This document shows positions 770-46,815 of a DNA stretch of 56,170 nt, piece after piece. A model generated the notes under the pieces. It saw only the letters and a program-made list of their open reading frames with translations. It was not told the DNA's origin and searched no databases. Position numbers and translations under genes: made by a program. Within the stretch, counting starts at the first letter, position 1; each line of letters starts with the position of its first letter. Source of the DNA: Prorocentrum cordatum (Eukaryota); NCBI GenBank assembly GCA_963575745.1, contig CAUYUJ010000106.1:62001-118170 (forward strand). Reading direction: 5' to 3'.

Positions 770-1404
770 GGCTCCCCAGAGAGCCCCAAGGGCCGCAACG
801 CCGACAACAGCCCTCCAAGATGGTTCAAGAGTGCTCCGAGATGCCACGCGCTCGCTTCAAGACGTCCAAGATGGCTCCCAGACGCCCCAACAGGCCCCCA
901 AGAGGCGTCCCAAGAGGGCATTAAGAGGACAAAATCGTGAGATTCCTTTGGCAAAACGTATATTTTTAGCAGATTCGCCACTTGAGCTTTCGCAACGTCA
1001 AAAGCGGCCCAACAGGCCCCCAAGATCGCCCAAGACGGCCCAAAAGGCCCCCAAGAGAGCCCAATACCGCCCCAGAGGGCCCCAAGACGACCCAATAGGC
1101 CTCCAAGACAACCCAAGAGGCCCCCAAGACGGCTCCAAGAGGTGGTGCAGACGGGAGACCCGCACGGATATTTCGAGACCTCGGCCCCGAGAGGCCCCCA
1201 GGAGCGCCCAAGAGGCCCTCGAAAGGCTCCCAAGAGGCCCCAAGAGGCCCCCAAGAGGCCCTAAGATGCCCCTGCGAGGCCCTCAGGAGGCCCCCACGAG
1301 GCCCCCAAGCGGCCCCAGGAGGCCCCCAAATGCCCTCCCAAGCACGCAAGCAAGTGCCAGCGATGCTACAATATGGGCCGGCGGAATGAGCGAAGCGATT
1401 GAAT
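770..1404 (+). mobile_element. 3' part of a CCAAGA-repeat element ending in a GCGAAGC hairpin
   Basis: A degenerate ccaagaggcc/ccaagacggc array ends in GGGCCGGCGGAATGA-GCGAAGC-GATTGAAT. A homologous end lies at 45293-45324. Confidence 0.55.
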
Positions 1405-3283
1405 AATCCATGACCTGCTCCGTCGGAAAGAACGGGGGGAAGTCAGCTCGGACGCGTTGGGCAGATTGCTCCATCGTATCTCCGTCGAAGAGTGGATGCA
1501 CCGACATGATTTCTTCTGTTCTGCGGTTTTGAATCCTCAGAAGCTGGGCTGCCGCCACCTCCTCGAACTCCGCCCAAAATCTACTCTTGTCGGCGGCGTC
1601 TGCGTCGTCCGCGTGCGTCGGCTTGAATGCAACATTCGTGTCGAAACCCAAGTCGGCAGCGACTTGTGCAAATGAAACGTTCGCGCCCAAGTGGGACACA
1701 GCAGCCTGGACCTGGTCGTTACCGTGAAACCCGCGGACGCTGACGGCGGCGGTCTCCCTCAAGCTGTCGGAGGCTCCGCCGCTCCGCGGGTAACATGCGC
1801 CTTCAGCAGCTTTTTCAAAACGATACTCGGTGCACCCGTCGTTGCCCGCCAGCGCCCTCCGTTGGGCGGCTCGCGGGCTGCCGCGGGATCCTCCGGCCCG
1901 CAGCGCCACAGACGGCTTCGCGATAGCCGCAATCGTATCTGTGGAATACAAGGATGCTCCGCTCTGGCTCTTGGGCAGGACGCGATCCGCTTGTCGGCGT
2001 CGGAGTGAGGAGTAGTACGCGGAGGGGCGAATCCAATGGTCGGGCGTCCAAGTTGCCCAATCCAGAACCTCCATCGACGCGATCTTGGTCTGCACATGCG
2101 ACCTGATCGTGGCCTTGCTGGCGGCGTCGCAACCGTACTTCTCCGAGAGGTAGTCCGGCAACTTCTCCCTCACGATCCTCTGGCCGAGCGCCAGGCCGGC
2201 ACGGTTGTCAGAATCGTAGTGAACGCCTGCGAACGTGCGGAAGTAAGCAACAGAGTAATCCAGGAGTCGCACCTCATTACGCTGCGCTGGGGTCAGGAGG
2301 GCCACGACGTCGAGCCAAGTCGACAGAGAGGAGGCCGCCGAATGCATAGCCGGCCAAGCTGGGTGCACGGGGCACCCTTCTGAATAGGCGGTAAAAGACT
2401 CGCGCGTAGTCAAGCCCATGCCGTCCACCATCGCCCTGACGTTGGCTGGGGCCTGGCTCAATCCCCCCTGGCTGAGGTTGTACGCAACCTCCTCGGGCCG
2501 CGCGCGGCCGACGTACCACTTGCACCCGAAGGCGGCGGGCGACACCTCTGCGATCGCCCAACCGATAATCCTCCCCAGAGCCACCGGGCCGTTCACAAAC
2601 TCGACCGTGCTCGTGCAACTGGCCTGGCCGAAGATTTCCGGGTCCATTGTGAGCGCCATGCTGCTCAAATAGCTCGTGATCTGCTCCGTAGGAAACTGCG
2701 TGGGGAAGTCCGCACGGACGCGCTGGGCGGACTGCTCCATCGTGTCCCCGGCGAAGAGCGGATGCACGGACATGATATCCCGAGTGAGGGTCCCGTTCCT
2801 CCTCAGAAGTTGGGCCGTCACCACATCCTCGAACTCATTCCAGAAGCTGGCCTGGTCTGTTGCGTCCGCGTCGTCCGCATGCGTCGGCCTGTACGCGGCG
2901 TTCGTATCGAAGGCCAGATCCGCAGCAAGGTGGCCAAACGAAACGCTATCTCCCAAGTAGGACACTGCGCGCTGGACCTGGTCGTTTTCGAAGCCACGGA
3001 CGCTGACGGCGGCGGTGTCAGCGAGGCTGTCAGAAGCTCCGCCATCCCTTGGATAGCACGCAGACGGGGCAGCCTTGGCGAATCGGAACGTGCTGCAACT
3101 GTCGGTGGCCTCCTGGCGCGAGGGAAGGAAAACCTGTAAAAGTTGAATGTCCTGCGCACTGACGTTGTCACCTTGCTGGGCGCGACTTTCCCACAGTACT
3201 TGGCCGCACACGTAACAAGTCAGCAAATTGTGGATAAGGAGTGCGCGGTGGCGTCCGTGCATGATGAAAAGCATGTGGGTCAT
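1405..3283 (-). CDS. Vanadium-dependent haloperoxidase / PAP2-superfamily protein: one complete domain plus a partial tandem second domain
   Basis: ORF 1283..3283 has the three PAP2/VHPO motifs in order: KWYVGRARPE (K~2520), HPAWPAMHS (~2342-2365) and RTFAGVHYDSD (~2207-2239). The block SCSTFRFAKAA...FPTEQ (~3100-2681) recurs as GCTEYRFEKAA...FPTEQ (~1840-1415). Below ~1405 the ORF runs into repeat DNA, so that tail is not counted. Confidence 0.85.
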
Positions 3284-3308
3284 CGTCGTGGTGTCGAACC
3301 GGAAGTAG

Positions 3309-3323
3309 CCTGAGCCAAACTGA
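3309..3323 (-). other. Degenerate relic of the dinoflagellate spliced leader (DinoSL)
   Basis: Minus strand TCAGTTTGGCTCAGG matches the DinoSL 3' end CCATTTTGGCTCAAG at 12/15 positions, 25 nt upstream of the ATG at 3283 and in the gene's orientation. Confidence 0.6.
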
Positions 3324-3409
3324 TGCCCCCGAGTAACGCCAGCTTCGTGTTACCAAAGCCAGAATCTGCAGTAACGTACGCTTGGTGTGCCAAATACAAA
3401 ATTGCGCGG

Positions 3410-4185: not shown

Positions 4186-4634
4186 GTACCGAAAGGGCCG
4201 CATATGCACGGTATGAGGAGAAAGGTCTTAAAACGTAGCGAAGTGTTTAGTAATCCGCCGTGCCTCTGGGCACGGAGTGGGCGTGTCCTCAAGTCATCTG
4301 CCAAATCCCCCGAGCTTCAGTCCTCAGTCCTGAAGACTCTTTAGGTGCCCGGGACCAAAATCCCACCAGCCCTCTGGGCGTCGGTTGTGTAGAACGTTTC
4401 TTCTTCCACCCCTCCTTTTTCCCCTTCGGGGAGGGGTTGATCACTGTTCCCTATTAGTATACACCCCCTCCCCCTGGCGACTGGGAGCCAACCCGGGTCA
4501 ATGAGGGCCCCCCCCACCATCCCTTGCAAAAAACAATACAAAACACACTCTGCCTCCAAATTCGTAGCATGCGCAGCGAACCCGATGCGGCCTCCCCCCA
4601 CCATCCCTGTCAAAAAACAATACAGAGTACACTT

Positions 4635-8619: not shown

Positions 8620-9655
8620 CGCTCCCTATGGGGCCACGAACCGTGTGCGGGGCGTGCCGACATGCGTGGCGGGGCACACAACGCGAGGTGTAACAAAATT
8701 CGGGTGCGCCAATGGGACCTTAGATGGAGCTCCCTATCGAGCCACGAAGCGTGAGGGGTGTGCCAAAATGGGGCGGCGCCGCCATGCGGGCTGCGCCACT
8801 GGGACCCTAGATGGAGCTCCCTATGGGGCCACGAAACGTGTGAGGGGTGTGCCAAAATGGAGCGGCGCCGCCATGCGGGCTGCGCCACTGGGACCTTACG
8901 TGGAGTTCCTTATGGGGCCACGAAGCGTGTGAGGGGTGTGCCAAAATGGAGCGGCGCCGCCATGCAGGCTGCGCCACTGGGACCCTAGATGGAGCTCCCA
9001 GTGGAGCCACGAAGCGTGTGATTGGTGTGCCAAAATGGGGCGGCGCCGCCATGCGGGCTGCGCCACTGGAACCTTCGGTGGAACTCCCTATGGGGCCACG
9101 AAACGTGTAAGGGGTGTACTGAAATGGAGCGGCGCCGCCATGCGGGCTGCGCCACTGGGACCCTCGATGGAGTTCCTTATGGAACCACGAAGCGTGTGAT
9201 TGGTGTGCCAAAATGGAACGGCGCCGCCATGCGGACTGTGCCACTGGGACCTTGCGTGGAGCTCCCTATGGGGCCACGAAACGTGTGAGGGGTGTGCCAA
9301 AATGGGGCGGCGCCGCCATGCGGGCTGCGCCACTGGGACCTTGGGTGGAGCTCCCTATGGGGCCACGAAGCGTGTGATTGCTGTGCCAAAATGGGGCGGC
9401 GCCGTCATGCGGGCTGCGCCACTGTGACCTTAGATGGAGCTCCCTATGGGGCCACGAAACGTGTGAGGGGTGTGCCAAAATTGGACGACAGCGCCATGTG
9501 GGCTGCGCCACTGGGACCTTAGGGCTCCCTATGGGGCCACGAAGCGTGTGAGGGCTGTGCCAAAATGGGGCGGCGCCGCCACGCGGGCTGTGCCACTGCG
9601 ATTTTAGGTGGAACCCCCTTATGGGGCCACGAAACGTGTGAGGGGTGTGCCGAAA
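8620..9655. repeat. 89-bp tandem repeat, about 11-12 units
   Basis: Unit GGGACCTTAGATGGAGCTCCCTATGGGGCCACGAAACGTGTGAGGGGTGTGCCAAAATGGGGCGGCGCCGCCATGCGGGCTGCGCCACT at 89-bp spacing. Confidence 0.95.
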
Positions 9656-12200: not shown

Positions 12201-14538
12201 CTCCTCCTCCTCCTCCTCCTCCTCCTCTTCCGGTTCCTCCTCCTCCTCCTCCTCCTCTTCCTCCTCCTCCTCCTCTGCCTGCGGTCGCCTGGCTGCTGGA
12301 CTGGGACATGCCACCGCTCGGGCGCCTCTCCCCCGTGCACTCTCCAATCGGCGGTGGACTGAGGGGCAACGTCAGGGGGGGATAGGCATAGGGGGGAAGC
12401 GGGGAGGAGGACGAGGAGGAGGAGGAGGAGGAGGAGGAGGAGGAGGAGGAGGAGGAGGAGGAGGAGGAGGAGGAGGAGGAGTTGGAGGAGGAGAGGAGGA
12501 GGAGGAGGAGGAGGAGGAGGAGGAGGAGGAGGAGGGGAGGAGGAGGAGGAGGAGGACAGGAGGAGGAGGAGGAGAGGAGGAGGAGGAGGAGGAGGAGGAG
12601 GAGGAGGAGGAGGGGGACAAGGAGGAGGACATCCCTCCCCTCCTTGTAGAAGCACTTGCCGCCCACGGGGGGGCTGCCGAGGGGAGCGCGCTGCGCGCCT
12701 CGCTCCGCGCCCCCCGGCGAGCGCGGCGCCTCCCGAAGCATCGACCTGGAATCGGCGATACATCGCCGATAGATCGGCGGTAGGCCTCCGATAACGAATC
12801 CGGGCCGACTGTAGTCCGGGTACGTTTGTGGGAATCTGTTTGACTACGTTTGATGGTGCTTTGCTTATCTGATACTTTTCGTCCAGAATCCGCCTGTAGG
12901 GGGACATGCCCGACCTGAGGCCAAGACGCAGCCAGGACGAGGACTACACCGGGCGAGGACAAATCGACCTGGAATCGGCGATACATCGCCGATAGATCGG
13001 CGGTAGGCCTCCGATAACGAATCCGCACCTTCCTGGGCAGGTTGGGGCCATCGGGCTCCTAACGGCGATCCATGGGCGATTGGGGGTCGATGCATCCCCC
13101 CCCTACCCTATGCCCTATGCCTAATCCCCCTCCTATCTTTGCCCCTGATGGGCACACCTGCCTTTAGTTAGCCTCCCCTCAGTGAGAGCGGCCTGGGACC
13201 CAAAACCGACGGACCTGGACCCGCAAAAATGACGGCCGCGCCGCCCTCTCGCGAACCGAAAACGGCCGCTTCACCGAGCGACGTGTCAGGGTAGGACGTC
13301 TATCCACCCCCGATGATAACTGGACTGTCGGGTCGGGCGAAAGGGGGGGATAGCAAGGGGGGGGGGTGAGAAGCAGCTCGCGTAGCTGATTTTCCCGGCG
13401 CTTCCCTGCGCCGGAGGCGGCTGTGTATCGAGGAATGGCCCCCTCGGTGGGGCCGAAACCAGCTGCATGCAGCAGATTTCGCAACCCCCCCTTTCCCAAT
13501 CCCCCCCTTCCGTCCGGCCCGAGAGCTGGAGCTGATCCGAGAGATACGAGCCGGCGCCGACCCTGACGTGACGGCGCCCAGCCGATGGAGGAGGAGGAGG
13601 AGGAGGAGGAGGAGGAGGAGGAGGAGGAGGAGGAGGACCGAGAAATCTCTGGGACTGGGAAACGGAAACGCCCAGAGACTGGGAAACGCCATCGGTCGGA
13701 CGCCTCGCCCCCGTGCGCTCTCCGGCCCCGTGCGCAGCGGGCTCGCTGGAGGCCTCCCGACGGGTGCCCCCCGCGACGGCCCACGGGCGCTCCCCGGCGC
13801 TGGCCTCGCCGAGAGGAGGACCCACGCGCGCGCCCGGGCGGGGCCAACGCAGCCTGCAGGCCAGGATGCAGGTCGGGCCTGTCCCCCTACAGGCGGAGTG
13901 TGCAGAGAGTGCGCAGGGCAGCTTTTAATACATAGGTTCTTTTTGTTACAAAAGAAAGGATTTGTAATACATGACGAACTTATGCTATGAGTACATGTAT
14001 GCACGACCTCCTCGTTGTCTTTAGTGCTAAATCCCGGCATTTTTAATACATGATCCGCACGCGGAGCATGTATCGAAAACGGCACTGTAAGATTCAAGTC
14101 GGGCCTGTCCGTCCACAGGAGGAGTGTGCAAAACGTGTAGGGAAATGCAGTCGGCCTTGATTGGGGAGGGCACGCGAGCCGAAGGCCACATCGCCACAGG
14201 AGCGCGAGAAGGCACGTGTCGCGAGGCACAGGACACAAGGGGTACCCTTGAGCTGGCAGGGTCGACCTACCAATCCGGGCCGACTGTAGTCCGGGTACGT
14301 TTGTGGGAATCTGTTTGACTACGTTTGATGATGTTTTGCTTATCTGATACTTTTCGTCCAGAATCCGCCTGTAGGGGGACATGCCCGACCTGAGGCCAAG
14401 ACGCAGCCAGGACGAGGACTACACCGGGCGAGGACAGATCCAGGGCCATTGAGCTCTGGCGGTTCTGGAGGATGCCTCGGGCGCCGCGGCCTTTCAGAGC
14501 GCTCCCGAACGCTCTAAGAGCGCTCCGGAACGCTCTTA

Positions 14539-14689
14539 GGGGGCCACATGCGAAGCCTACCCCTACCCCCCACGATTTCTGAGGGGGAGGGGTGGGGTTC
14601 ACTCCATGCGGGAGCTCCCGAGTGAAGTGAGCCCCACCCTCCCCCTCAGAAATCGTGGGGGGTAGGGGTAGGGTTCGCATGTGGCCCCC
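14539..14689. repeat. Foldback element (~55-bp arms) flanked by TA
   Basis: GGGGGCCACATGCGAA.CCTACCCCTACCCCCCACGATTTCTGAGGGGGAGG is mirrored at the right end, with TA on both sides. Confidence 0.75.
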
Positions 14690-14908
14690 TACTGGAACGG
14701 ACTGATCCTCGTCCCGGCCCCGTCCGACAGGCTCCCAACGGACGGAGCTCGCAGGCGCTTTCCGGGGCGTGGCGCGCAGCTCTGCCGAGGCCACGGGTGC
14801 GCTGCCCGGTCTGGGGCCGTCCAGGTCGCTGTGTGGTGGCCCAGGAGGCCGACTTGGGGTCCCCTTGGGGGCCTCGTGGGCCTCTCGAGGCCCTCCCCTC
14901 CTCTGTGG

Positions 14909-15556: not shown

Positions 15557-16480
15557 ATTGTGGACAAAAAACACACTGTGGGAAAAGCACACACATATAT
15601 ACAACACACACAGTGGTTAAAAAAAACGCGCACCCACACAGTTTCCACAGCGTGGGTGTTTTCCCACAGTTTCCACAATGTGTGTTTTTGCCCACAAACT
15701 GTGTGTTTTGTATGCGTGTGTGTGTATGTTTGTGTGTGCATGTTTTTCCACGTGCATGTTTTTGCCCCGCGGTCGGTTCCGCCTGTTTTTTCCTCCTCCT
15801 GCCGCCGGTGAGTTTGCGCCTTCCGTTGCCGGGACCGCCTGAGCGCGGGTGAGGACTGCATCTGCCGCGCTGCGGCGTAAAAAACAACGGGCCTCTCGAG
15901 ACGCGGCCCTGCTGCAAACGAGACAGGGCCGACCTACTCTGCGAATGGCGCATCACTGGCAGCGCTCGGCCTCTACTGGGTGGAACCGAAACCGTGGGCC
16001 ATCTCTGAGCCCCTGGGGGGCAGCCTAGGAGGTCGAAATCGTTGGGAAGCCTGCGACTTGCATTATTCTAGCACGCTCGCCGTTTCGGTATACTCAGAGC
16101 CTCCGAGGCAGCCTAAGAGGTCCACAGCCTCGGCCCAAGGCTGCTCCCAAACCCCCCCAAGCTTCGGGGCCCAACCTCGGGGCCCTGAGAAGAGGGGCCA
16201 CCATGGAGGATCTCGAAGGGACCCCAGAAGGACCCCCCCCGAACACGGCACCCCGCAACCAGCAGCAGGCCCACCCAAGGCCTCCGAGAAGCCCCCACGA
16301 GGCTCCAGGAGGCTACCCCCCCGAAAGAAGAAGGGACCCCAGGAGGCCCCTCCCCGAATACGGCACCCCGCAACCAGCAGCAGGCTCACCCGAGGCCTTC
16401 GAGAAGCCCCCCACGAGGCTCCAGGAGGTCTCCGGTCCGCGACCTGGGCACGGTGGCTTGATGGGCCGAGAGCAGCTGGA

Positions 16481-18057
16481 TCCGCCGCCCCCTTTTGATT
16501 TATCAAAGCGGTGCCTGGCGTGTTAAACCCCTTGGTTTGGGTTTTGGTTCTTTTCCAAAAGAACTCACCCTAGGGCTTCGGCCCGTCCCGCCGGCCACCC
16601 GGAAAGATCTTCCAGAGGTGGTTGCAAAGGGTTGTTCCGTTTCAGACGGCTCCAAGATGCCCTAAGATGGCCTCCAAGACGGCCAAGATGGCCTCCAAGA
16701 CAGCTACGATGGCCCCAAGATGCCTCAAAGATGGCCCAAGATGCACCCAAGACGGCCTAAGATGGCCTCAAGATGACCCACAACGGCCCAAGAGGCTCCC
16801 AAGAGGCCTCCAAGACGGCCCAAGAGGCCTCCAAGAGGTCCTCCAGGAAGGCCCGAAGAGGCCAAAATTATTGATTTCCCCTTAGGTTTTTGAAAGATTT
16901 GGGCATTTGCGCCTTTTCGGCTTTCCGACGGCCCAAGACGGCCCAAGAGGCCCCCAAGATCGCCCAAGAGGCCCCCAAAAGGGCCCCTATGACGGCCCAA
17001 GTGGCCTCCAAGACGGCCCCAAGAGGGCCCCAAGACGGCCCAAGAGGCCTCCAACACGCCCAAGATGGCCTCCAAGACGCCCAAGATAGCCTCCAAGACG
17101 GCCCCGAAGCGCCCCAAGAGGGCCCAGAAAGGCCCCCAAGACGGCTCCCGACGGCGTCAGACGTGCCAGGAACTCACCAAGATGGCCGAAGTTGGCTCAA
17201 AGCTGGCCCAAGAGGCCCCCAAGAGGGCCTCCAGGAAGGCCAGAAAAGGCCCAAAACATTATTTTTCCTAATGTTTTTGCCGTATTTTGACATTTGCTTC
17301 TTTTCGGCCTTCCGACGGCCCGAGACGGCCCAAGAGCCCCCGAAGATCGCCGAAAGATCGCCCAAGAGGCCTCCAAGATGGCCCCGGAACGGCCCAAGAG
17401 GGCCCCAAGACGGCCCCAAGAGGCCCCCAAGACGACACAGGAGGCCTTTAAGACGCCCAAGATGGGCCTCCGAGACGGCCCTGGAGCATTCCAAGAGGGC
17501 CCCAATTCGGTCCATAGAGGCCCTCCAAACGGCTTCCGACGGTTCAGACGGACCAGGAGCCCACCAAGACGGCCGAACATGGCCCTAAGATGGCGCAAGA
17601 CGGCCCAAGAGGCCTCCAAGAGAGCCTCCAGGAAGGCCCGAAAAGGCCAAAAACATTGATTTCCCATGGGCTTTCGAAGGATTGTGGCATTTGTTTTTTT
17701 TCTGTCTTCCGACGGCCCGAGACGGCCCAAGTGCCCCCAAAGATCACCCAAGAGGCCCAAGACACGGCCCCAAGAGGCCCCCAAGACAGCCCAAGAGGTC
17801 TCCAAGACGCTCAAGATGGCCTCCAAGACGGCCCAAGAGCCCTCCAAGACGTCCTCCAAGAAGGCCCGAAAGGGTCAAAAAGGTCTCCAGACGGCCAAGA
17901 TGACCTTCAAGATGCCCACGTGTTCCCCGAAGGCTTTCCAAACCGATTCGGGGAACACATGGTCTGACAGCTTGGCAGGTCTGGACTCAACGTTCGGCCA
18001 CATAGGCGCTTCCACAAAGGCAGGGGGCGGCGGTGATTCGCCGTAGGCGTCTTCGAT
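16481..18057 (+). mobile_element. Second family of asymmetric-IR/hairpin element with a CCAAGA-rich interior
   Basis: 5' CCGCCGCCCCC (16482-92), 3' GGGGGCGGCGG (18023-33), hairpin CGCC-GTA-GGCG (18039-49), end TCTTCGAT. Related ends occur at 19495-19540, 20791-20833 and ~21322-21352. Confidence 0.55.
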
Positions 18058-20251
18058 CCGCCGACCCGATCGATGCGCATGGCGGCTCGTCCACCTCCTC
18101 CTCCTCCTCCTCGTCCTGCTCCTCCTCCTCCTCCTCCTCCTCCTCCTCGTCCCCCTCTTCCTCCTCCTCCTCCTCCTCCTCCTCCTCCTCCTCCTCCTCC
18201 TCCTCCTCCTCCTCCTCCTCCTCCTCCTCCCCTCCTCCTACTCCTCGTCCTCCTCCTCCTCCTCCTCCTCCTCCTCCTCCTCCTCCTCCTCCCCTCCTCC
18301 TCCTCCTCCTCCTCCTCCTCCCTCCTCCTCCTCCTCCTCCTGCTCTTCCTCCTCCTCCTCCTCCTCCTCCTCCTCCACCTCCCCCCCCTCTTCCGATCCC
18401 GAAGGCAGCTAGATCAAGTGAGCGTTTCCTTTTTCGGCGTTTCGAAATTGGGCGGAAGGGGGGGAGGGGGAGGGGTCTGGCTCTGGACCTCTGCCTAATG
18501 CGCCTGTTTGCAACAGGGCGTCCTACGTATGGGGGAGACTCCACCTGCCCGAAAAAGGCGCCCAAAACAGCCAAGATCTACTCCACGGGGGACGCGGAGG
18601 GGGGGTATGCAAGGGTCCGCGCCGATCGCCAAAACAAGGAACAAGAACACGATCACCAAAGGGGTGCCTGGCGTGCCAACATCTTACTGCTTGAAACATG
18701 TTCTGAACGTTCCCGGCGGGGTTTGGGCCAGTCGATTCGGCCAGCTATCCGGAAAGGCCCACAACGACCCGCACTGTCTGGTCCGTCAGTTGTTCTGCTC
18801 CAGACGGCCCCAAGATGGCTAAGACGACCAGCATGGCATCCAGGACGGCTCAGGTGGTCCCAAGAGCGTCGAAGATGGCTTCACGACGGCCTTCAAGACG
18901 GCCCAAGTTGCACCCAACACGGCCCAAGATGTCCCTAAAATGGTCCAAGAAGCCCCCAAGACGCCCCATGGCTCCCAGAGGAGCTCCAGGAGGCCAAATA
19001 CATTGCTTTTTCGATTGTGTTGCAACGATTCTGTGGTTCTCGCCCCCAACAAGGATCGTCCAAAGACGGCCCAAGAGGCCCTCACGAGGACCGCCAAACG
19101 CCCCAAGTGGGCCCTAAGACGGCCCTATATAACTCCAAGACGGCCATAAAGCGCCCAAAGAACTGCCCAGAGAGGGCCCGAAAACGCCGAAGCCCAAGAG
19201 GTAAGAGACGCCCAAGAGGTCCCTAAGAGGCCCCAAAGGACCCAAGAGGCCCCTGAGATGCCCTCAAGAGGCTCCCAGGGAGCCCCCAGGAAACAACAGG
19301 ATGGCCCCAAGAGGCTTACATTTCCTCCTCCTCCTCCTCCTCGTTCTCCTTCTCCTCCCTCTCATCCTCTTTTCGCTTTCTCTCCCAAGTGTTCCCCAAG
19401 GGGTTCCACAACGGCTGGGGGAGCACAGTCACATTGTCCAACAGCTTGGCAGTGGCCGGCGGTGGTTCGCCGCATGGGCGCCTCCAAAAGGCAAGGGGCG
19501 GCGGTGGTTCGCCGCAGGCGTCTTCGATCCGCCGCCCCCTGTTGGGTCCGCACGGCGTGCCAGACTGAAGGGGCCCTGGGACACGCAAATACATAGACAC
19601 AGATAACAGGATTCCCCATGTTTTCCCACATGTTCTAGGTTTTTGTCTTCCCCCCCATTTCCCATTTTTTCCCGCAGCTTCTGGGAGATCGACGATTAAT
19701 TGTGTCTGCATGTTTTTTCCCTCCTGACAGACGTTGTCGTTTTGATTGCTTCAGGTTCTTGCCATGAGGTCTCGGCCCAGCCCGCCGGCCGGCCGCCAGG
19801 AGAGCCGCACAAAGACCTCAACATCCACAACTCCCCAAGACGGCCAAGATGGCCTCCAAAACGCCTCAGATGGCCTCCAAGACGCCCTAGACGGCCTCCA
19901 AGACGCCCAGAATAGCCTCAAAACAGAATTTAAGATTGCCGGAGAGGTTCCTAAGACGGCCCGAGAGGTTCCGACCACGCCCCAAGACACCTCCAAGAGG
20001 ACCCCCCAAGAGAGCCCAAAGAGAGCTCAGAGAGACCATCACCTCCTTCGCCTGCACAGGGGTGCTTGGCGCGCCAGATGCTCGCGCCGAGATGGCCCTA
20101 AGACGCCCAGAATTCCCCCAAAGGCCCGAGATGCCCTCAAGAGGCACCAAGGAAGCCACAAGAGGATCAGGGGCCCCCAGGAGGCCTCCTCCTCCTTTTC
20201 CTCCTCCACCTCCTCCTTCTCTTCTCCTCCTCCTCCTCCTCCTCCTCCTCC

Positions 20252-20600
<349 letters not shown>

Positions 20601-21487
20601 TCTCCGTGTCTTCCTTCTCCGTCCTTTCCTCGTGCTCCTCCTCCTCCTCCTCCTCCTACTCCTCACAATCCTTTTGCTCTCACAAGTGCCCCCCCCAAGG
20701 ATTTCCACACTGGCTGGGGGACACACATCGTCCAACAGCTTGGCGAAGCCGTGGCCCAACGTTTGGCCACATCGGCGCTTCCAACAGGCAGGGGCGGCGG
20801 TGGTTCGCAGTCGGTGTCTCGGGTCCGCCGCCCAAGCAGCCCGCGGAGCGGTGCTCGGCCGTCCACAGGGGTGCCAAGCGTGCCAACTATTCCAGCCACC
20901 GGGGGCTGTTGCAAGTCATTCGGCCCAACACGCCGCTCCCAGCTAGGCCGCACCCTTCAGTGCTTGCTCCGAGCAAGGTGGACTCCAAGACGGCCAAGAT
21001 GGCCCAGGAGATGGCGCAACGAGGCCCCCAAGACGCCCCAGGGAGCCTCCAGACCGCTCTGAAAGTTCAAGGCTCAGGTATCTCACATCCACTGCTAACA
21101 CGTCTAAGCATTCTCGCCGTCTCGGTCTTGAGGGCGGTCGAGACTGCCCACTGTCCAGACGGCCCAAGAGTGCCCCAAAGACGGCCCATGATGACCCCAG
21201 GATGGCCCAAGAAAGCTACAGGAAGCCCCCAAGAAGGTTCACGAGGGCCCAACAGAGACCCGAGACGGCCCCAGGCTCTCCCGAGGGTCCCTCCAGGAGC
21301 CGACCTTTCGGTGGCGGCGGTGAGCGGTGATTCGTCTTAGGCGTCTTCGATTGTTGCAACTGAGGCGATGACAGCGGTGACGGCAGCGGCGCCGACGATG
21401 TCCATATTGGAAACCACTGTGGCTCGTGAACAACGTTTGTCAGGCAATCTGGCGCGACGGCGACGGTAACAGCGGTGGAACACATGC

Positions 21488-24846: not shown

Positions 24847-25384
24847 TAACATCGGGTGACCGAGCTCTATACACACCGACGCTGCACACGGAAAAAGGCG
24901 GACAAGTATGCGCCACACAACCCCGACGTCACAACTGAACCTCAGAACATCTTGGGGTCGAAAAGCAGCCTGCCACTGGTACTGTGTACGTTCCAGTTTC
25001 CGAGGCTTGTCTCAGTGCACTGGCAAGGCGCGGGCATGGGTGAGCAGCCTGCGGCCAGAGGCCGAACAACCGTCCAGGCCTGGATGCTTCGCGCCGAAGT
25101 GGTGGAATTGGGCGGCAGATTTCCGCGCCCGCGTGCCGACAGAGCAAGATCACGGGAAGACCGCGCCGTCGCGCCCTTCAAAGCCAACCTGGAGGGAGGA
25201 GGCAGACCGCGAGGGAGAAAATAGGCAGAAACGGTACGACTCGTCCCTTCACCAACCGGCAGGCGAATACCCCAAGCTTCGCCGGCCAGTTGCACACCTG
25301 GACCGCCGACGGAAGGCCGCTCTGAGGCACGACCTCTCTCTGACTACCTACCAAACCACCCCAACCCAACCCGAAGACCCGAAT

Positions 25385-26625
25385 CCCACCAGCCCTTTGG
25401 GCGTGAGTGGTTTAAGGAGCTCTCTCTGTTCTCAACCCCCCTTTTTCCCCTTCGGGGAGGGGTTTACCCCTCCCCCTACCCCCTCCCCCTGGACCTGGAG
25501 AGGGGGTTTCGCGGGTCGTTGGAGGGGTCTTTTTCGACTCCTGGGAGGGCTAAAAAACGACGACCCTCACGAGGATTCTGGCCCCGACGGGGGGACTTAG
25601 TTTGGCCCCTCTGCTCTTCTTTAAAACCAAAATCATTGATTTTACTACGGTTTTAGCCCCATTTTGGCGTCCTGGGGGGGCCGCGCTCATGTTCCGTCAT
25701 AGCAAAATCATTGCTTTTACGAAGGTTTTGGCCCCATTTTGTCCTTTTCAGGGGGCAGCTCTCGCTTCCGCTTCTGAGGAGGCCCCCAGAGGGGCCAAGA
25801 TGGCCCCCTAAAGGCCCCCAGGAGGCTCCCAAGAGGCCTCCAAGAGGCCCCCCAGAGGCGCCCAAGCGGTCCCAGGAGGCCCCCAAGAGGCCCCCAAGAG
25901 GCCCCCAAGAGGCCTCAAGAGGCCCCAAGGGGCTCCCAAGAGGCCCCCCAGAGGCCCCCAAGAGGCCCCCCAGAGGCCCCAAGAGGCTCCAAGAGGCTCC
26001 CAAGAGGCCCCACGAGGAGCCCGAACGACTCACACCAGGCCGAGGGGCCCGAACGACTCACACCACGAAGAGCCCGAACGACTCACACCACAAGGAGGGG
26101 CCCGAACGACTCACACCAGGACGAGGCGCCCGAACGACTCACACCACGAGGAGCCCGAACGACTCACACCACGACGCGGGCCCCGAACGACTCACACCAC
26201 GAGGAGCCCGAACGAGTCACACCAGGAGGAGGGGCCCGAACGACTCACACCAGGACGAGGGGCCCGAACAACTCACACCACGAGAAGCCCGAACGACTCA
26301 CACCAGGACGAAGAGCCCGAACGACTCACACCACGAAGAGCCCGAACGACTCACACCAGGAAGAAGGGCCCGAACGACTGACACCAGGACGAGAAACCCC
26401 AAACGACTCAAATCACGAGGAGCGCTTTCTCTCCCTTCTCCTCCGCCTCGTCCTTCTCCCGCTCCCCCCACAAGGAGGATGTACAAGGAGGCGGGAGGAA
26501 GGAGGAACAGGGGAGATATGCGGGGCCAAGCGGACACACGCCTGAAAAACACGACTGTCGGCATGCTTCGCCAGAGTTGCTGCTGTGAGATGGGCTGGTG
26601 GGGATACGCGAAGCGTCAAGAACTT
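25385..26625 (+). mobile_element. Non-autonomous element with asymmetric inverted repeats and terminal hairpins (Helitron2/Helentron-like)
   Basis: 5' CCCACCAGCCC (25385-95) overlaps hairpin GCCC-TTT-GGGC. The subterminal complement GGGCTGGTGGG (26592-602) is followed by ACGC-GAA-GCGT (26606-16). The interior is tandem repeats, and the element interrupts a MITE. Confidence 0.7.
26010..26420. repeat. 25/28-bp tandem repeat inside the asymmetric-IR element
   Basis: CCCGAACGACTCACACCA followed by CGAGGAG or GGACGAGGGG, about 15 units. Confidence 0.95.
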
Positions 26626-26879
26626 GTCCCGAATTTCGGGTTGGGGGGGGTACGGGTTCCATGTTTTTTTTCGACGTTCCCCGACCCCCCCCCACTGGAA
26701 ATGGAAATGGCTCAAGGCCCACGCTGGCCCAAGACTCAAAGGTCAGATTCAGGTCAGATTCAGGTCAGATTCATTTTCGGATTCCGCGGTTCCTGGTGAG
26801 CCCCAGGGCACCGCCTGCCTCCTTGCGGCCAGCAGGTGAGCAGTCTTCTTATCGTACCCGCGCAGCCCTTCTGAGGATC

Positions 26880-28037: not shown

Positions 28038-28061
28038 GAAATACGACGGCGCATTGGTGAT

Positions 28062-32585: not shown

Positions 32586-33059
32586 CTGTGAGAAATAGCA
32601 CACTGGGCTGATGCACCTACGGACGAGTACGGCCGTTTGCCACTCAATGAAAACGAGCATGTCCCATCCAACATACGCGCGGGCACCTCATCGGCGCACT
32701 TCTTGCGAGGCTGCCAGAAACAGAGGGGCCATAATCTGGGTCCTACCAGAGGCTCCAAGCACAGGAGCCAGCATGGAAGCCGAAATACTGATGTGTCCAG
32801 TGCCCAACCGTTTCGTTTCTTATCCGCCTCTGGCTCGAGATTGACAGAAGACGAACGTCTGCATCATCATAAACGTTCGGCGGCCCGCGCGGATTCCTTG
32901 ATAGGCGCTAGACCACCATCCCTGGCGCGCGGAGCGCGCCTAGGGCGGTGCAGGCGCCGCCGCCAGGGAGGGGGGCGGGGGCCGCGGCGAGGATACCACG
33001 GAACTCCAAAAATGCACGTTGATGCAGCTGTTTTTGGTCCGAACTGCGGCAGGACATGA

Positions 33060-33231
33060 CTACATACCAAGCCACCCCAACCCAACCCGAAGACCCAGAG
33101 CTCGGATTGGGGGGGGGTACGGATTCCATTCGTGTTTTTTGTTTTCACGATATTCCCCGACACCCCCCTCCCACTGAAAATGGATCGCAAATCGACACCT
33201 TCGGGTTGGGTTGGGGTGGTTTGGTGGGTGG
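33060..33231. mobile_element. Intact 172-bp MITE (family B), ~33-bp TIRs, TGA direct repeats
   Basis: TGA|CTACATACCAAGCCACCCCAACCCAACCCGAAG ... CTTCGGGTTGGGTTGGGGTGGTTTGGTGGGTGG|TGA. Confidence 0.8.
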
Positions 33232-33554
33232 TGAAAACAGGTCGGCGGTCCAACTTTTTCAAGTGCAGACCTCGCAACCTCCTGGCCTGGACCAGGACCG
33301 CCATGGACACCGGATTGGCGAAAGACTGGCGGGCTGCGAGGCCTCTGGTGGTCCAAAGGTGATGGTCGTGGGAAAAGGTGCCCAAGCTGCCGCTTGTGCT
33401 GCGAAGTGTTTGGGGGGGGGCTAACAGACGTCGGCATAAACACAAATTCTCGGAGGTCCGCGCGGGGCGGGGTGTCTCGGATCGGCGCTGGACCCCCTCT
33501 GGCGACGCCTCCGGCGCCTCCGAAAAAAAGGCCGCCCCCCTCTGCCTTCCCTCA

Positions 33555-42000: not shown

Positions 42001-43920
42001 ACGGCCAATTCCTTAATCGACGTGTCAGGGTAGGAGGTCTATCAACCTCCGATTCCGTGACTTCTGAGGACGCACTCCTTCTCACGACCCCCCCCCCTGG
42101 CGCGCCGCCGACTAGAGTCACCACCCCCCTCTTTGAAGGGGGGGCCCTGGGACACACAAATAAATACACACAAGTAAAAATATTCCCCACATGTTCCAAT
42201 GTTTCCTGGATTTTTGTGTTCCCCCCTTCCCATATTTTCCCATATTTTCTCGGGAATCAACATGTCAGGGTAGGAGGTCTGTCCACCCCCGAATAGGGAC
42301 GTGCCCGACGCAACGCCCGGAGCCTCGGGCCGAGCTGCCACTGGTTATGTATATGCTATGGAAAAACCCTCCGCCACTGGTTATGTATACGTTCCAGCTT
42401 GCGAACAAAAAATGCTCCAGACATCTTCCCCAGACTATCTTAAACATGTGTTTGCACACTCCTCCTGTGACCCGCACCGCCCTGGGGCCCTGCAACTGAC
42501 GCCCAGGGATGGCGGTGACGCTGGTCGAATGGCGAGGGGCGACGGGGGCCCTCTGCAAGGCAGGTGCCCGGCGAGGAGCCATCGTCTGGATGCTGGGTGC
42601 GCCGGGGGCTCCGAGCGCGAGCCACTCAGCTGACGTAACGCCTGGAGCCTCGGGCCGAGAGCTGCCACTGGTTATGTATGCGTTCCAGCTTGCGAACAGA
42701 AACGCTCGAGACATCTTCCCCGGGCTATCTTAAACATGTGTTTGCGCGTTGTCCTCCCGCAGAGGGACGTGCCCGACGCAACGCCCGGAGCCTCGGGCCG
42801 AGCTGCCTCGCGGGCGCGGAGCCCCGCCGCGCCTCCCGCCCACGGCCGGCAGAGGGCGGCCCGCGGGCGGCGGCCTCTCCTCGTCGGGGGCGGCCTCTCC
42901 TATGCTGACGGAGCCGCGGCGCTTGCGCGCCTGGGCGGGGCGCGGCCGCTGCGGAGGGGCCCTGGGACGCGCAGATCAGTGCACAGAAAAAGCCTCCTCC
43001 TCCTCCCTTTCCTCCTCCTCCTCCTCCTCATCTCCTCCTCCTCCTCCCTCCTCCTCCTCCTCCTCCTCCTCCTCCCCCATTGCTCCCCCTCCTCTTGCTG
43101 CTCCTCTGCCTCCGTCTCCTCCTCCTGCTCCTCCTCATCCTCGTTTTCATCTTCGTCGTCTTCAGGGTCGGCGGCAGCGGCCGTAAGGCCTTCGCAATAC
43201 ACACAAATAACAGGATCCCCTACATTTTCCAATGTTTTCTGGGTTGTCTCGTCTTCACCCCCACTTCCCATATTTTCCCACATTTTCTGGGGAATCGACG
43301 ATGACTTGTGTCTGTGTGTTTTTGTTCCCTCCTGAGCCGTGGATCTGGATGCCTGGAGGGACGCGAGCATCCCAGTCGAGGTTGGCTGAAGACTGGAAGG
43401 TTCCAAAAAAGGGTTTGCGGGGGAGGGGTGTTCCGAAGAGCCCCCGAGGGGCCTCCGGAACCGCGTCGAAGCAGGGGGTGCGAAGCCCCTGGGGGACCCC
43501 TCGTGGAGAACGCCCTCCCCCAAAACCACCCTTGGAACCCTCCGGGTAGAGGACGCGTGCGAGGACACGAGACCCTTCGGAGGGCCCCCGTGCCCTGGGA
43601 GTGCAGAAGGCATGGGCCGCGAAACACAGGACACGAGCGTGCCATCGGGGAAACCAAAAAGTCACCGATGCCGCTACTCCCCGGACCTCTCCCTGGGCCC
43701 GTTCTGACCAGGACTTCGGCGAGAATCCAGCGGTGGCAGCGAGGGCCTTCCAGGAGGCCCAAAAAGAGGAAAACGAGGCAAGGGTAGACGTATGGTACCT
43801 TTTTTCTTCCTCTGATTGATTTCGCAGGGTCGACCTACTAATCGGCCTCGACTGTATCGGCGGCGAGCCCTGGGGGGGAAGCGAGAAGGAGCGAAGGCAT
43901 TCGAGGAGGTGCTTGGGTTA

Positions 43921-44922: not shown

Positions 44923-46130
44923 CTCCGACTGGAATCGGCGATGCGTCCCCGACAAATCGGCGACAGGCCCCCGATGGCGGAACCAGGCCTTCCTTTCCTG
45001 GGCGGGGTGGGGCCGTCGAGAACACGAACCGACAATCTGAGATTTCCATGCCGAGAGGCCCCCCGAAGACCCCAAGGAACACCCCAGCGGCCCTCCCAAA
45101 AAAACCGAATGAGCCCCGAGAGGCCCCCAAGAGGCCCAAGAGAGGCCCCAAGGAGGCCCCCAACACGCCTCAAACCGGCTTCCACGAGGCTCCGCCAGGC
45201 ACCCAAACAGCTCCCAAAACGCCGACAAGAAACCCCACGGAGTGCCCAATAATCCCGCAAAGCCTCAAACCATGTACTCCGCGCCTCTTCTGGGGGCCGG
45301 CGGAATGGCGTAAGCCTCTTGAATACACGTTCGGAGGTGACGTGCTGAGCGGCAGCGTTTTTTTCGGCGCATGCCTTAATGCAAGGTATCCATTGTATCC
45401 GATAGTTGTACAATTGTTACATATTGTACTGTGATATGTTTTATGTATCCCCCTAACCCCCACTTAGGGTCGCGCCATCCCGCCGATCCAAAGTGTACCC
45501 CCCCATCTCGTGCTCTGAAAACCTTGTTGAAAAAACATATCTGACATCGACGATTTGGGCATCTTGGGCCTCTTGGAAGCTAGAGACTGCTGCAAAAGTG
45601 ACCAGGATGGCCTCGGGGCCGTCCAAGACAGCCCTAAAACAACCCAAGATGGCCCATCCAGGGCTCATGAGGCACTCCAGACAGCCGAAGAGGGCCCCGA
45701 GAGCACCCACAACAGCGCCTCCAGAGACCAAGCTCATTGATTTCCATCGGTCTTTGGCGGATTGTACCGTTCTCGCCTGCTTCGACTCTCAAAAGCCGAT
45801 AACGGCCAACGCAGCGGCCAAAATTGCCCCAAGAAGGCCCAATAACCCTCCAGAAAAGGCCCGAGACAGCCCCGGACCAACCGCAAACGGCCCCCAACAC
45901 GGTCCAGGAGGCCGCCAAGACGGCCCCAGAGGACAAGGCGGCGCGAAGAAACCCAAAGACGGCCTCCGGAGGTGTCAGACGGGCTCCAAGCCCGCCAAGG
46001 CGGCCCCCAAACGGACCGACATGGCCCCGCGAGGCCCTACAGAACCCCCGAGAAACCTCCCAGGGGCCAAGAGTTCCCCAAGAACGCTCCCTGAGGTGCG
46101 CGCAAATACCCTTGCGCATCGTGCGGGAAC

Positions 46131-46191: not shown

Positions 46192-46815
46192 CTGGGAGGG
46201 GGGAGGAGGAGGGAGGAGGAGGAGGAGGAGGAGGAGGAGGAGGAGGAGGAGGAGCAGGAGGAGGAGGAGGAGGAGGAGGAGGAGGATCTGGGGCAGAGCG
46301 TTGCAATTCTGCACCCAGCTCGACGCACGCGGCGAGGTCCAGCGCACCTCCTCCTCTCGGGTACTTCACTTCGCGGCAGAGCTGGGCACAGGCGTGGCCC
46401 CCGAGACGGCTCTCGAAGGACCCCTGCAGCCCCAGCGCGCCCGAAAACTGCCGGAGGCTCCCCCAGAAGTCAGGCAGGTCTCGTGAAGCCGATGCCCACA
46501 AGAAACGCCGAACATCCTCCAAAACGAGCCAGACGCCCGCGCTCTCCGCAAATCCGGACGTGCACCCCGTGAAGCGAAAGGAATCCGCCCGCCCACCCGG
46601 CCGAGGGGCGTGTGGGACCTAACTGCGCGAGCTTCTTGCAGCGCTTTAGTAGCCCCCTTGATCCCCCCCGGAGGGCTTCGCCACTCCGCCGCCCGGCTGC
46701 GCCCAGGCCCCTCTTTGGTCCCCTGAGACGCCTCCAAGACGGCTTCCACGACGAGCTCGAGGTTCGGATCGTTCCAAGGACGCCATCTGGGCGCACTTTG
46801 GCTGCATTTCGAACC

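What the first reader, a model, noticed from the sequence alone, without database searches (positions are those of the whole stretch)
4236..4440. Shared terminal grammar across at least four repeat families with different IR sequences
Seen: heads read AT + CC-rich IR + hairpin + GGCGT(G): AAT-CCGCCGTGCC-TCTG-GGCACGG..GGCGTG (4252-4285), AAT-CCCACCAGCCC-TCT-GGGCGTC (4359-4382; also 25382) and GAT-CCGCCGCCCCC...GGCGTG (16479, 19526). Tails read IR + 3-6 nt + GNA/GTAA hairpin + ...GA(A)T (1375-1404, 18023-18057, 26592-26625, 45293-45324). Inferred: one enzyme class recognising structure rather than sequence, with swappable IRs. This is the best candidate here for an undescribed mobile-DNA system.
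Basis: partly seen in the sequence, partly recalled or inferred. Interest (0 to 1): 0.7.

Follow-up and report, generated by a model that had tools for sequence, protein, structure and literature searches.

The report
Helitron2-type rolling-circle transposon ends
The shared "head" and "tail" layout is real, but it is the known end structure of small non-coding Helitron2/Helentron-type jumping genes that carry tandem repeats, here in several subfamilies in a GC-rich, probably dinoflagellate, genome, so it is not a new kind of mobile DNA.

Summary
The cited heads and tails are at the stated coordinates. A strict version of the tail grammar is well above chance: 8 hits against a mean of 2.26 (max 7) in 300 dinucleotide shuffles. 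Three hits have an exact 10-nt inverted partner upstream, against 0.010 in shuffles. A loose version is not enriched.

The layout has five parts:
- a 9-11 nt inverted repeat at the very 5' end, after "AT";
- a local 5' hairpin using that repeat;
- internal micro- and minisatellites;
- the inverted partner 19-25 nt before the 3' end;
- a C(GNA/GNNA)G mini-hairpin, then 7 nt and T.

This matches the published anatomy of Helitron2/Helentron (HLE2) elements and their non-autonomous HINE/DINE-1 derivatives (passages in PMC3627910, PMC7492417, PMC11417382).

The window holds five complete units, several in head-to-tail arrays. Two metagenome contigs carry the same families. A paralogous empty site fixes one element's ends.

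Open points:
- no Rep-helicase gene in the window (0 of 438 ORFs);
- one 9-nt target-duplication-like repeat, atypical for Helitrons.

Verdict: new member of a known kind. This scan had already noted Helitron2-type elements on other DNA of this genome (e1-7625408). Interest is low to moderate.

The parts
1375..1404 (+). Tail t1 (subfamily F4). 3' inverted repeat GGGCCGGCGG, GCGAAGC mini-hairpin (2-bp stem), 7 nt, T. The unit body upstream (about 986-1340) carries 10/11-bp satellite. No head lies inside the window.
   Evidence: The 3' boundary is supported by a paralog alignment in which homology starts at about 1403-1405.
4240..4254 (+). Degenerate tail remnant (AGCGAAGTG + 8 nt + T) directly before the F1 head.
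   Evidence: Read and compared with t1. No 3' inverted repeat is recognisable upstream, so this is tentative.
4254..4285 (+). Head of subfamily F1. T, then 5' inverted repeat CCGCCGTGCC (4255-4264), its local partner GGCACGG (4269-4275), and GGCGTG (4280-4285).
   Evidence: folds a 7-bp hairpin (z -1.98).
4361..4438 (+). Head of subfamily F2, a 5' part only. T + CCCACCAGCCC + TCT + GGGC..., homologous to 25376-25464.
   Evidence: 4353-4438 against 25376-25464, 81%. In one search homology starts at AAT|CCCACC.
16447..16481 (+). Possible degenerate F1-type tail. GGCACGGTGG is 9 of 10 complementary to the 4255 head. It is followed by 24 nt and T, then directly by the F3 head.
   Evidence: No good hairpin (z +1.02). 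Tentative.
16482..18057 (+). F3 unit 1, complete. Head CCGCCGCCCCC, 10/11/21-bp satellite arrays (16644-17866), tail 18023-18057.
   Evidence: 0 mismatches, 1541 nt apart.
18058..19528 (+). F3 unit 2 in direct head-to-tail tandem. Head CCGCCGACCC, (CTC)n microsatellite 18086-18394, tail 19495-19528.
   Evidence: 1 mismatch.
19529..20824 (+). F3 unit 3 in tandem. Head CCGCCGCCCCC, 21-bp arrays and microsatellites, degenerate tail 20791-20824. A further head starts at 20825.
   Evidence: 0 mismatches.
25385..26625 (+). F2 unit, complete (1241 bp). Head CCCACCAGCCC + 5' hairpin, 11-bp array 25779-26011, 53-bp array 26010-26423, tail GGGCTGGTGGG + ACGC-GAA-GCGT hairpin + 9 nt.
   Evidence: 0 mismatches. 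Ends fixed by the empty-site paralog and by the independent copy in L001.
25376..25384 (+). Left copy (GACCCGAAT) of a 9-nt direct repeat flanking the F2 unit. The right copy, GTCCCGAAT, is at 26626-26634.
   Evidence: Removing the element plus one copy restores colinearity with 33057-33184.
33057..33184 (+). Paralogous empty site, part of a roughly 190-nt foldback repeat (33057-33244), lacking the F2 unit.
   Evidence: the F2-deleted junction aligns across it (128 nt, 82%, E 1e-21). Also.
42104..43198 (+). F5 unit, complete. Head GCCGCCGAC (preceded by C, not T), (CCT)n 42993-43142, tail GTCGGCGGC + GGCC-GTAA-GGCC hairpin + 7 nt + T.
   Evidence: In one search the head region is homologous to the 19529 head region.
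43199..43340 (+). Start of a 5'-truncated unit abutting tail t7. It is homologous to the body about 70 nt inside the 19529 unit. The same body recurs at 44055-44206 and 42141-42264.
45293..45324 (+). Tail t6 (F4). GGGGCCGGCGG + AAT + GGC-GTAA-GCC + TCTTGAA + T. An 11-bp satellite lies at 45114-45163 upstream. No matching head was found.
46661..46694 (-). Candidate tail on the minus strand. GGGCGGCGG + A, an extended hairpin around GGC-GAA-GCC, 7 nt, T. No head was found.
   Evidence: Tentative.

Best explanation
These are the two ends of non-autonomous rolling-circle transposons of the Helitron2/Helentron group (HLE2; HINE-like). At least five subfamilies are present, several as head-to-tail arrays.

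Shown:
- Each unit starts, right after a flanking "AT", with a 9-11 nt repeat that can also pair locally into a 5' hairpin.
- Each unit carries a microsatellite and/or 10-53-bp tandem arrays.
- Each unit ends with the reverse complement of the 5' repeat, a small C(GNA/GNNA)G hairpin, and about 7 nt plus T.

Inferred from what is published for the family:
- A Rep-helicase encoded by autonomous copies elsewhere nicks the top strand at the 5' junction and peels it off.
- It stops where the 3' repeat and hairpin signal the end. Bao and Jurka propose that pairing of the 5' and 3' repeats marks the endpoint.
- It then inserts the single strand after an "AT". The same dinucleotide closes the element's own 3' end, which would explain why new units so often sit directly after an older unit's tail.
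- Because the enzyme reads a paired layout, the repeat sequence can drift so long as both copies and the 5' partner change together.
For: 1. Anatomy against the published definitions.
- Canonical HLE2 (PMC11417382, passages): 12-16 nt TIRs plus a stem-loop after the right repeat.
- Here the repeats are 9-11 nt. The 3' repeat lies 19-25 nt before the end.
- A 5' hairpin uses the repeat in F1, F2 and F3. In L002 it folds at -16.9 kcal/mol, z -4.46, with 0 of 200 shuffles as good.

2. Co-variation.
- F2 is 11/11 complementary in the window and 11/11 in L001.
- F3 is 11/11, 9/10 and 10/10 in its three units. F5 is 9/9.
- F2 and F3 differ at 5 of 11 positions, all compensated.

3. Non-randomness: one search gives 8 against 2.26 hits, 3 against 0.010 paired, and 5 against 0.46 with T at +8.

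4. HINE-type interior. Microsatellites and tandem arrays occur in every complete unit, as in Cg_HINE/DINE-1 (PMC7492417, passages).

5. One orientation and direct abutment.
- Three or more F3 units and three units at 42.1-45.3 kb lie head to tail.
- 6 of 11 tails, counting L001 and L002, are followed at once by another unit. In L001 an F3 tail is followed by an F2 head.
- Tandem Helitron insertions are known (PMC5148889 and PMC7492417, passages).

6. Discrete insertion. A paralogous empty site places the F2 ends within a few bases of the inferred head and tail. The reconstructed target is ...GAAT|TTCGGG, a T|T site.

7. Flanking bases.
- 7 of 8 window heads follow "AT".
- The Helitron2-type FoHeli1/2 insert after TNAT (PMC5148889, passage).

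8. Strand asymmetry. All 7 well-formed tail hairpins have purine-rich G..A loops closed by C-G on the same strand as the element.

9. A Helitron2-like element is reported in Symbiodinium microadriaticum (PMC8788227, one passage).
Against: - No Rep or Pif1-helicase domain was found in the window. 0 of 438 stop-to-stop ORFs of 60 aa or more matched one. The only transposon-type domains are those of a LINE (endonuclease and reverse transcriptase). So the defining enzyme is not linked to these ends.
- The only copy with an empty-site paralog is flanked by a 9-nt direct repeat (8 of 9 identical). This looks like a target-site duplication, which canonical Helitrons do not make. Bao and Jurka do report variable 7-19 bp duplications for some Chlamydomonas Helitron2 derivatives, but mainly for 5'-truncated copies. 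The site is also quasi-repetitive (CCCGAA occurs several times) and the paralogs differ by many indels, so the repeat is ambiguous.
- One head (42104) follows GC, not AT.
- The exact ends are uncertain by 1 nt, because the T could belong to the element or to the flank.
- Hairpin energies of single window copies are not significant.
- Loosely defined, the grammar is common by chance.
Confidence: 0.8

Rival explanations
1. A cut-and-paste (DDE transposase) TIR element family, MITE-like, with 11-nt terminal inverted repeats and a 9-bp target-site duplication (Mutator-like). The hairpin would be an incidental subterminal feature.
For: Short inverted repeats sit at both ends. A 9-nt direct repeat (8/9) flanks the F2 unit, and removing the element plus one copy restores colinearity with the empty paralog.
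Against: - The 3' repeat is not terminal. A conserved layout of 19-25 nt (hairpin + 7 nt + T) follows it in every subfamily.
- No flanking repeat is seen at the L001 F2 copy or at the F5 unit.
- Units in arrays are all in one orientation and abut directly, without duplicated target bases.
- No DDE transposase domain appears among the 438 ORFs.
Confidence: 0.08
2. One reading: an undescribed class of mobile DNA, moved by an unknown enzyme that reads only the structure, with freely swappable inverted repeats.
For: The enzyme is unidentified here (0 of 438 ORFs). Repeat sequences vary with compensation. The duplication-like 9-mer and the docking of one subfamily's head onto another's tail are not standard textbook Helitron features.
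Against: Every structural feature matches published Helitron2/HINE descriptions, including subfamily-specific compensatory changes, central tandem repeats and tandem insertions. Four of the five repeat variants keep the same outer CCGCCG, so the repeats are not freely swappable.
Confidence: 0.07
3. Chance motifs in GC-rich, repeat-rich DNA, or mere boundaries of satellite arrays with no mobility.
For: The loose IR-plus-hairpin scan is not enriched (503 against 558). Individual hairpins are thermodynamically unremarkable.
Against: - The strict grammar and its pairing exceed every shuffle.
- The same heads and tails occur on two independent metagenome contigs, with the same junction to the base.
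- An empty-site paralog shows a discrete 1.25-kb insertion.
Confidence: 0.02

Closest known systems
HINE / DINE-1-type non-autonomous Helentrons, e.g. Cg_HINE of the Pacific oyster (PMC7492417, passages read)
   Same: - 5' subTIR of about 11 nt with a nearby complementary IR.
- A microsatellite and central tandem-repeat arrays in fixed orientation.
- 3' subTIR followed by a palindrome.
- Subfamilies that differ by diagnostic changes in the subTIR, IR and stem-loop.
- Insertion at T-rich or TT sites.
   Different: - The host is a GC-rich protist, probably a dinoflagellate.
- The satellite monomers are very short (10/11 and 21 nt, plus 53 nt).
- The 3' hairpins are minimal C(GNA/GNNA)G hairpins.
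- Heads of one subfamily often sit directly on tails of another.
- One copy has a 9-nt flanking repeat, whereas Cg_HINEs showed no target duplication.
Helitron2 elements of Chlamydomonas reinhardtii (Helitron-1N1_CRe, CRe-1/2/3; Bao and Jurka 2013, PMC3627910, passages read)
   Same: - Asymmetric terminal inverted repeats of 8-15 bp.
- A 5' hairpin using the 5' repeat.
- The 3' repeat 20-30 bp from the end, upstream of a hairpin.
- T at the 5' junction.
- Compensatory changes between related families.
- Occasional target-site duplications of 7-19 bp.
   Different: - There the insertions follow TTTT; here they follow (A/G)AT.
- There, duplications accompany mostly 5'-truncated copies; here the one case is a full-length copy.
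- No sequence similarity was tested, since no reference sequences are held.
FoHeli1/FoHeli2 of Fusarium oxysporum (Helitron2-type; PMC5148889, passages read)
   Same: Asymmetric terminal inverted repeats, insertion after TNAT, and tandem copies reported in related fungi.
   Different: Those are autonomous 6-7 kb elements with a Rep-helicase gene. The units here are 1.1-1.6 kb and non-coding.
Helitron2-like element of Symbiodinium microadriaticum (Heringer and Kuhn 2021, PMC8788227, one passage read)
   Same: A dinoflagellate host and an HLE2-type structure without the endonuclease domain.
   Different: That report rests on a Rep-helicase protein.

Membership tests
HLE2 (Helitron2 / Helentron, incl. 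non-autonomous HINEs) | Short inverted repeats at the two ends (8-15 bp in PMC3627910; 11-18 nt in PMC11417382) | tested here: met
   9-11 nt, with 0-1 mismatch in 5 complete window units and in L001.
HLE2 (Helitron2 / Helentron, incl. non-autonomous HINEs) | The 5' repeat lies 0-2 nt from the 5' end | tested here: met
   - F2: homology between copies and with the empty-site paralog breaks within 0-4 nt of the repeat.
- F3: different upstream contexts share only ..AT.
HLE2 (Helitron2 / Helentron, incl. non-autonomous HINEs) | The 3' repeat is subterminal (about 20-30 bp from the end) and is followed at once by a stem-loop | tested here: met
   19-25 nt from the repeat to the terminal T. A C(GNA/GNNA)G hairpin starts 1-5 nt after the repeat in 7 tails and is degenerate in 2.
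HLE2 (Helitron2 / Helentron, incl. non-autonomous HINEs) | A 5' hairpin or IR complementary to the 5' repeat | tested here: met
   - F1: 7-bp stem.
- F2: imperfect stem over the whole repeat.
- F3: clear in L002 (z -4.46).
- Eroded in the window copies at 18057, 19528 and 20824.
HLE2 (Helitron2 / Helentron, incl. non-autonomous HINEs) | Insertion between T and T (or after TNAT in FoHeli1/2) | tested here: inconclusive
   - 7 of 8 heads follow AT.
- 10 of 11 tails end in T.
- One reconstructed target is GAAT|TTCGGG.
- Only one empty site is available, and it is a diverged paralog.
HLE2 (Helitron2 / Helentron, incl. non-autonomous HINEs) | No target-site duplication | tested here: inconclusive
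   1 of 3 testable copies has a 9-nt (8/9) flanking repeat. The L001 F2 copy and the F5 unit have none.
HLE2 (Helitron2 / Helentron, incl. non-autonomous HINEs) | Autonomous relatives with the same termini encode a Rep (HUH) - Pif1 helicase transposase | not testable with these tools
   - 0 of 438 ORFs in the window carry such domains.
- No whole genome is held.
- The metagenome contigs are 1.2-1.9 kb.
- The other collections gave 0 hits.
HINE / DINE-1 subtype | A microsatellite near the 5' part and central tandem repeats in fixed orientation | tested here: met
   TRF arrays occur in every complete unit, always on the same strand as the termini.
Canonical Helitron (HLE1) | 5'-TC start, 3' hairpin plus CTRR end, no terminal inverted repeats, A|T target | tested here: not met
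   The ends are ...GAAT, CGAT or CAAT, not CTRR, and inverted repeats are present.
DDE TIR transposons with 9-bp duplication (Mutator-like) | Both inverted repeats terminal; a fixed-length duplication at every insertion | tested here: not met
   The 3' repeat lies 19-25 nt inside the end. A duplication is absent in 2 of 3 testable copies and at all array junctions.

The most novel reading that the evidence does not exclude
These dinoflagellate elements may be a distinct rolling-circle lineage whose integration differs from canonical Helitrons in two ways.

- The enzyme would dock new copies precisely onto the 3' terminus (hairpin + 7 nt + AT) of resident copies, even of other subfamilies. This would build mixed head-to-tail arrays that seed satellite DNA.
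- At ordinary targets it would make a staggered cut that leaves a 9-bp duplication.

The transposase could then be something other than a standard Rep-helicase.
Probability: 0.12. Interest if true: 0.55.

Novelty: new member of a known kind. Interest (0 to 1): 0.25.

Why it matters
It gives a clear name and ends to a very abundant repeat of this genome. That helps repeat masking and assembly of dinoflagellate-type genomes. It also shows how short satellites are spread by Helitron2-type carriers in a lineage where such elements are barely described.

Two details deserve a genome-wide look: the docking of heads onto the tails of other subfamilies, and the single 9-nt flanking repeat.

Tried and rejected
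- **Generic scans.** Scans for any inverted repeat plus any hairpin were too noisy. The outside/inside control showed no enrichment, so I replaced them with the strict grammar.
- **Covariance models.** The MAFFT alignment of the 8 tails (A3) does not keep the hairpins in register, and 8 short sequences would give a weak model.
- **Own genome.** One search showed that no whole genome is held.
- **Other collections.** Scans of genome contigs and viral contigs with the F3 tail pattern gave 0 hits each.
- **Earlier notes by sequence.** Two look-ups found nothing.
- **Sequencing runs.** Names are coded. One DNA run holds 0.32 of the sampled words.
- **Laying reads.** The second, for 42900-45650, showed many short contigs and very high summed depth over element bodies. 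It gave no contig that bridges an empty site, so it says nothing about ends or copy number.
- **Heads for unpaired tails.** None was found for t1, t6 or t8. One weak candidate at 41724 is not preceded by T, and I rejected it as chance.
- **Left-flank paralog of the F5 unit.** Homology stops 50 nt before the head, so it is uninformative.
- **A LINE inserted into a tail hairpin.** This was a lead from earlier notes. Here the F2 hairpin is intact, and about 85 nt of the foldback repeat separate the tail from what follows. It is not seen in this window.
- **RNA genes.** Rfam and tRNA scans gave no hits.

Full report
**Setting**

The window is GC-rich (0.52-0.65 in 2-kb windows). It is crowded with microsatellites and short tandem arrays. 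It has no tRNA or Rfam hit and contains a 100-N gap at 35967-36066. No whole genome is held for it. Earlier notes of this scan call the genome dinoflagellate-like. I could not verify the organism, because run and organism names are coded.

**The observation**

Searching for the shared start (T + CCGCCG or CCCACCAG) and for the tail layout added more instances.

There are eight heads:

| Position | Repeat after the T |
|---|---|
| 4254 | CCGCCGTGCC |
| 4361 | CCCACCAGCCC |
| 16481 | CCGCCGCCCCC |
| 18057 | CCGCCGACCC |
| 19528 | CCGCCGCCCCC |
| 20824 | CCGCCGCCCA.. |
| 25384 | CCCACCAGCCC |
| 42104 | GCCGCCGAC (follows C, not T) |

There are nine tails or tail candidates: 1375, 16447 (degenerate), 18023, 19495, 20791 (degenerate), 26592, 43165, 45293, and 46694 on the minus strand.

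Each tail has, in order:
- the reverse complement of a head repeat;
- 1-5 nt of spacer;
- a small hairpin whose loop is GNA or GNNA closed by C-G;
- 7 nt, then T.

The distance from the 3' repeat to the terminal T is 19-25 nt.

**Chance**

Loosely defined, the grammar is not special. Of 3667 inverted 9-mers, 503 have some hairpin just outside an arm and 558 just inside.

Strictly defined, it is:

| Measure | Window | 300 dinucleotide shuffles |
|---|---|---|
| Hits of the strict tail grammar | 8 | mean 2.26, max 7 |
| Hits with T as the 8th base after the hairpin | 5 | mean 0.46, max 3 |
| Hits with an exact 10-nt complement 100-3500 nt upstream | 3 | mean 0.010, max 1 |

Two of the 8 hits (38384, 764) look like background.

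Folding energies of single copies are unremarkable. None of 16 window segments has z below -2. So the case rests on layout, pairing and recurrence, not on thermodynamics. I recall that d(GCGAAGC)-type GNA mini-hairpins are unusually stable in DNA and may be underrated by the energy model. No call tests that.

**Units**

Pairing each tail with the nearest matching head gives five complete units:

| Unit | Coordinates | Subfamily |
|---|---|---|
| 1 | 16482-18057 | F3 |
| 2 | 18058-19528 | F3 |
| 3 | 19529-20824 | F3 |
| 4 | 25385-26625 | F2 |
| 5 | 42104-43198 | F5 |

- The three F3 units are in direct head-to-tail tandem. A fourth head follows at 20825.
- After the F5 tail comes a 5'-truncated unit, homologous to the body about 70 nt inside the 19529 unit. 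A third unit ending in the F4 tail at 45324 follows in the same orientation.
- Every complete unit carries tandem arrays on the same strand: 10/11/21-bp CCCAAGAGGCC-type arrays, a 53-bp array, and (CTC)n or (CCT)n microsatellites.
- Units are 1.1-1.6 kb and non-coding.

**Co-variation**

Complementarity of head and tail repeats:

| Subfamily | Copy | Complementary positions |
|---|---|---|
| F2 | window | 11/11 |
| F2 | L001 | 11/11 |
| F3 | unit 1 | 11/11 |
| F3 | unit 2 | 9/10 |
| F3 | unit 3 | 10/10 |
| F5 | window | 9/9 |

F2 and F3 differ at 5 of 11 positions, and all five differences are compensated.

The 5' repeat also pairs locally:
- F1 has a 7-bp stem and F2 an imperfect stem over the whole repeat.
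- The intact F3 head of L002 has a nested hairpin (-16.9 kcal/mol, z -4.46, 0 of 200 shuffles as good).
In F2 and F3 it is simply the downstream partner of the 5' repeat.

Four of the five repeat variants share the outer CCGCCG. The repeats therefore vary mostly in their inner half.

**Copies elsewhere**

A scan of metagenome contigs with the F3 tail found two contigs.
- L001 reads: satellite, F3 tail, one T, F2 head, F2 body with the same kind of satellites, F2 tail, then unrelated simple repeats. This is an independent complete F2 copy. It also shows a tail-to-head junction between different subfamilies.
- L002 shows an F3 tail joined through one T to an F3 head.

Comparing the window's F2 tail with L001 places the 3' end after the 9th base beyond the hairpin.

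The same pattern found nothing in the prokaryote genome collection or the viral contigs.

**An empty site**

The flanks of the window's F2 unit, joined, align across the junction with 33057-33184 (128 nt, 82%, E 1e-21). That stretch is part of a roughly 190-nt foldback repeat.
- This fixes the F2 unit as a discrete insertion of 25385-26625.
- It also reveals a 9-nt direct repeat: GACCCGAAT at 25376-25384 and GTCCCGAAT at 26626-26634.
- Removing the element and one copy restores the paralog's length. The reconstructed target is ...GAAT|TTCGGG.
- The repeat looks like a target-site duplication, but the site is quasi-repetitive and the paralogs differ by many indels.
- No such repeat flanks the L001 F2 copy or the F5 unit, nor any array junction.

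**What it is**

The layout matches published definitions point by point.
[quoted passage not shown] The 5' one is 0-2 bp from the end and folds with downstream bases. The 3' one is 20-30 bp from the end, just upstream of a hairpin. The 5' base is T, and related families show compensatory changes.
- The HELIANO paper (PMC11417382, passages) gives the canonical HLE2 structure as 12-16 nt terminal inverted repeats with a stem-loop after the right repeat, and T-T insertion.
- The oyster Cg_HINE elements (PMC7492417, passages) add the 5' IR, a microsatellite, central tandem repeats in fixed orientation, and subfamily-specific changes in subTIR, IR and stem-loop.
- FoHeli1/2 insert after TNAT, and tandem Helitron copies are known in several hosts (PMC5148889, passages).
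- A Helitron2-like element is reported in Symbiodinium microadriaticum (PMC8788227, one passage).

I therefore read these as non-autonomous HLE2/HINE-type elements.

**Mechanism (inferred)**

- A Rep-helicase supplied in trans nicks after the flanking AT and displaces the top strand.
- It terminates at the 3' repeat plus hairpin, then integrates the strand after another AT.
- All well-formed tail hairpins have G..A loops on the element's own strand. This fits a single-stranded step on that strand.
- Because the element's own end is ...AT after a hairpin, resident tails would be good targets. That would explain why 6 of 11 tails are followed at once by another unit.

**What is missing**

- No Rep or helicase domain occurs among 438 ORFs of 60 aa or more (56 + 150 + 150 + 82). 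The only transposon domains belong to a LINE at about 28-30.5 kb.
- The enzyme link therefore rests on analogy.
- The single duplication-like repeat keeps a DDE-type rival and a "new class" reading alive at low odds.

**Earlier notes of this scan**

- One note on other DNA of the same genome had already described satellite-carrying Helitron2-type elements (e1-7625408).
- Two others reported LINEs inserted into such hairpins (e1-7693943 and e1-7627475). I did not see that here.

**Verdict**

It is wrong that the system is undescribed.
- This is a new member of a known kind.

Noticed in passing
window 28038-30491 (+), roughly 26.9-31 kb: A LINE-type retrotransposon remnant with an Exo_endo_phos domain (28038-28745, E 1.1e-10) and RVT_1 pieces (29528-29965, 29895-30491). 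It lies downstream of the F2 tail but is separated from it by about 85 nt of the foldback repeat. The tail hairpin is intact.
   Followed up: partly
window 33057-33244, and 25330-25380 + 26636-26705: A roughly 190-nt foldback repeat with arms of about 40 nt (DNA fold -53 kcal/mol). One copy received the F2 insertion at its palindromic centre. An arm-like piece also occurs at 31305-31331.
   Followed up: partly
window 8662-9655 and 33904-34253: An 89-bp tandem repeat (about 11 copies, 86-93% alike) with a diverged second array about 25 kb away.
   Followed up: no
window 14537-14691 and 44763-44926: Two long near-perfect palindromes (about 155-165 nt, 92% self-complementary in the self-blast).
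   Followed up: no
window 1283-3349 (-): The longest open frame (688 aa) has an internal duplication (1411-1780 against 2677-3043, 75%) and only a sub-threshold PAP2 match (20.6 bits against a cut-off of 27.2). The F4 tail ends exactly where this repeat's homology begins.
   Followed up: partly
window 18029-18049 and 19500-19520: In F3 tails, the last bases of the 3' repeat (CGGCGG) can alternatively pair with the left arm of the mini-hairpin (CGCCG). This gives two mutually exclusive folds, and the left arm resembles the element's own 5' start.
   Followed up: no
window 43176-43359, 44096-44187, 45108-45199: In the one DNA run that holds part of the window, contigs matching these element bodies and satellites sum to word depths of 10^4. 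Neighbouring unique bins show about 1-30. This suggests a very high-copy repeat, though summed contig depth is not a copy number.
   Followed up: partly
window 4421-4436 and 25446-25458: The F2 heads share a conserved internal hairpin, CCCCTTCGGGGAGGGG, about 60 nt inside the element. It is also present in the L001 copy.
   Followed up: no
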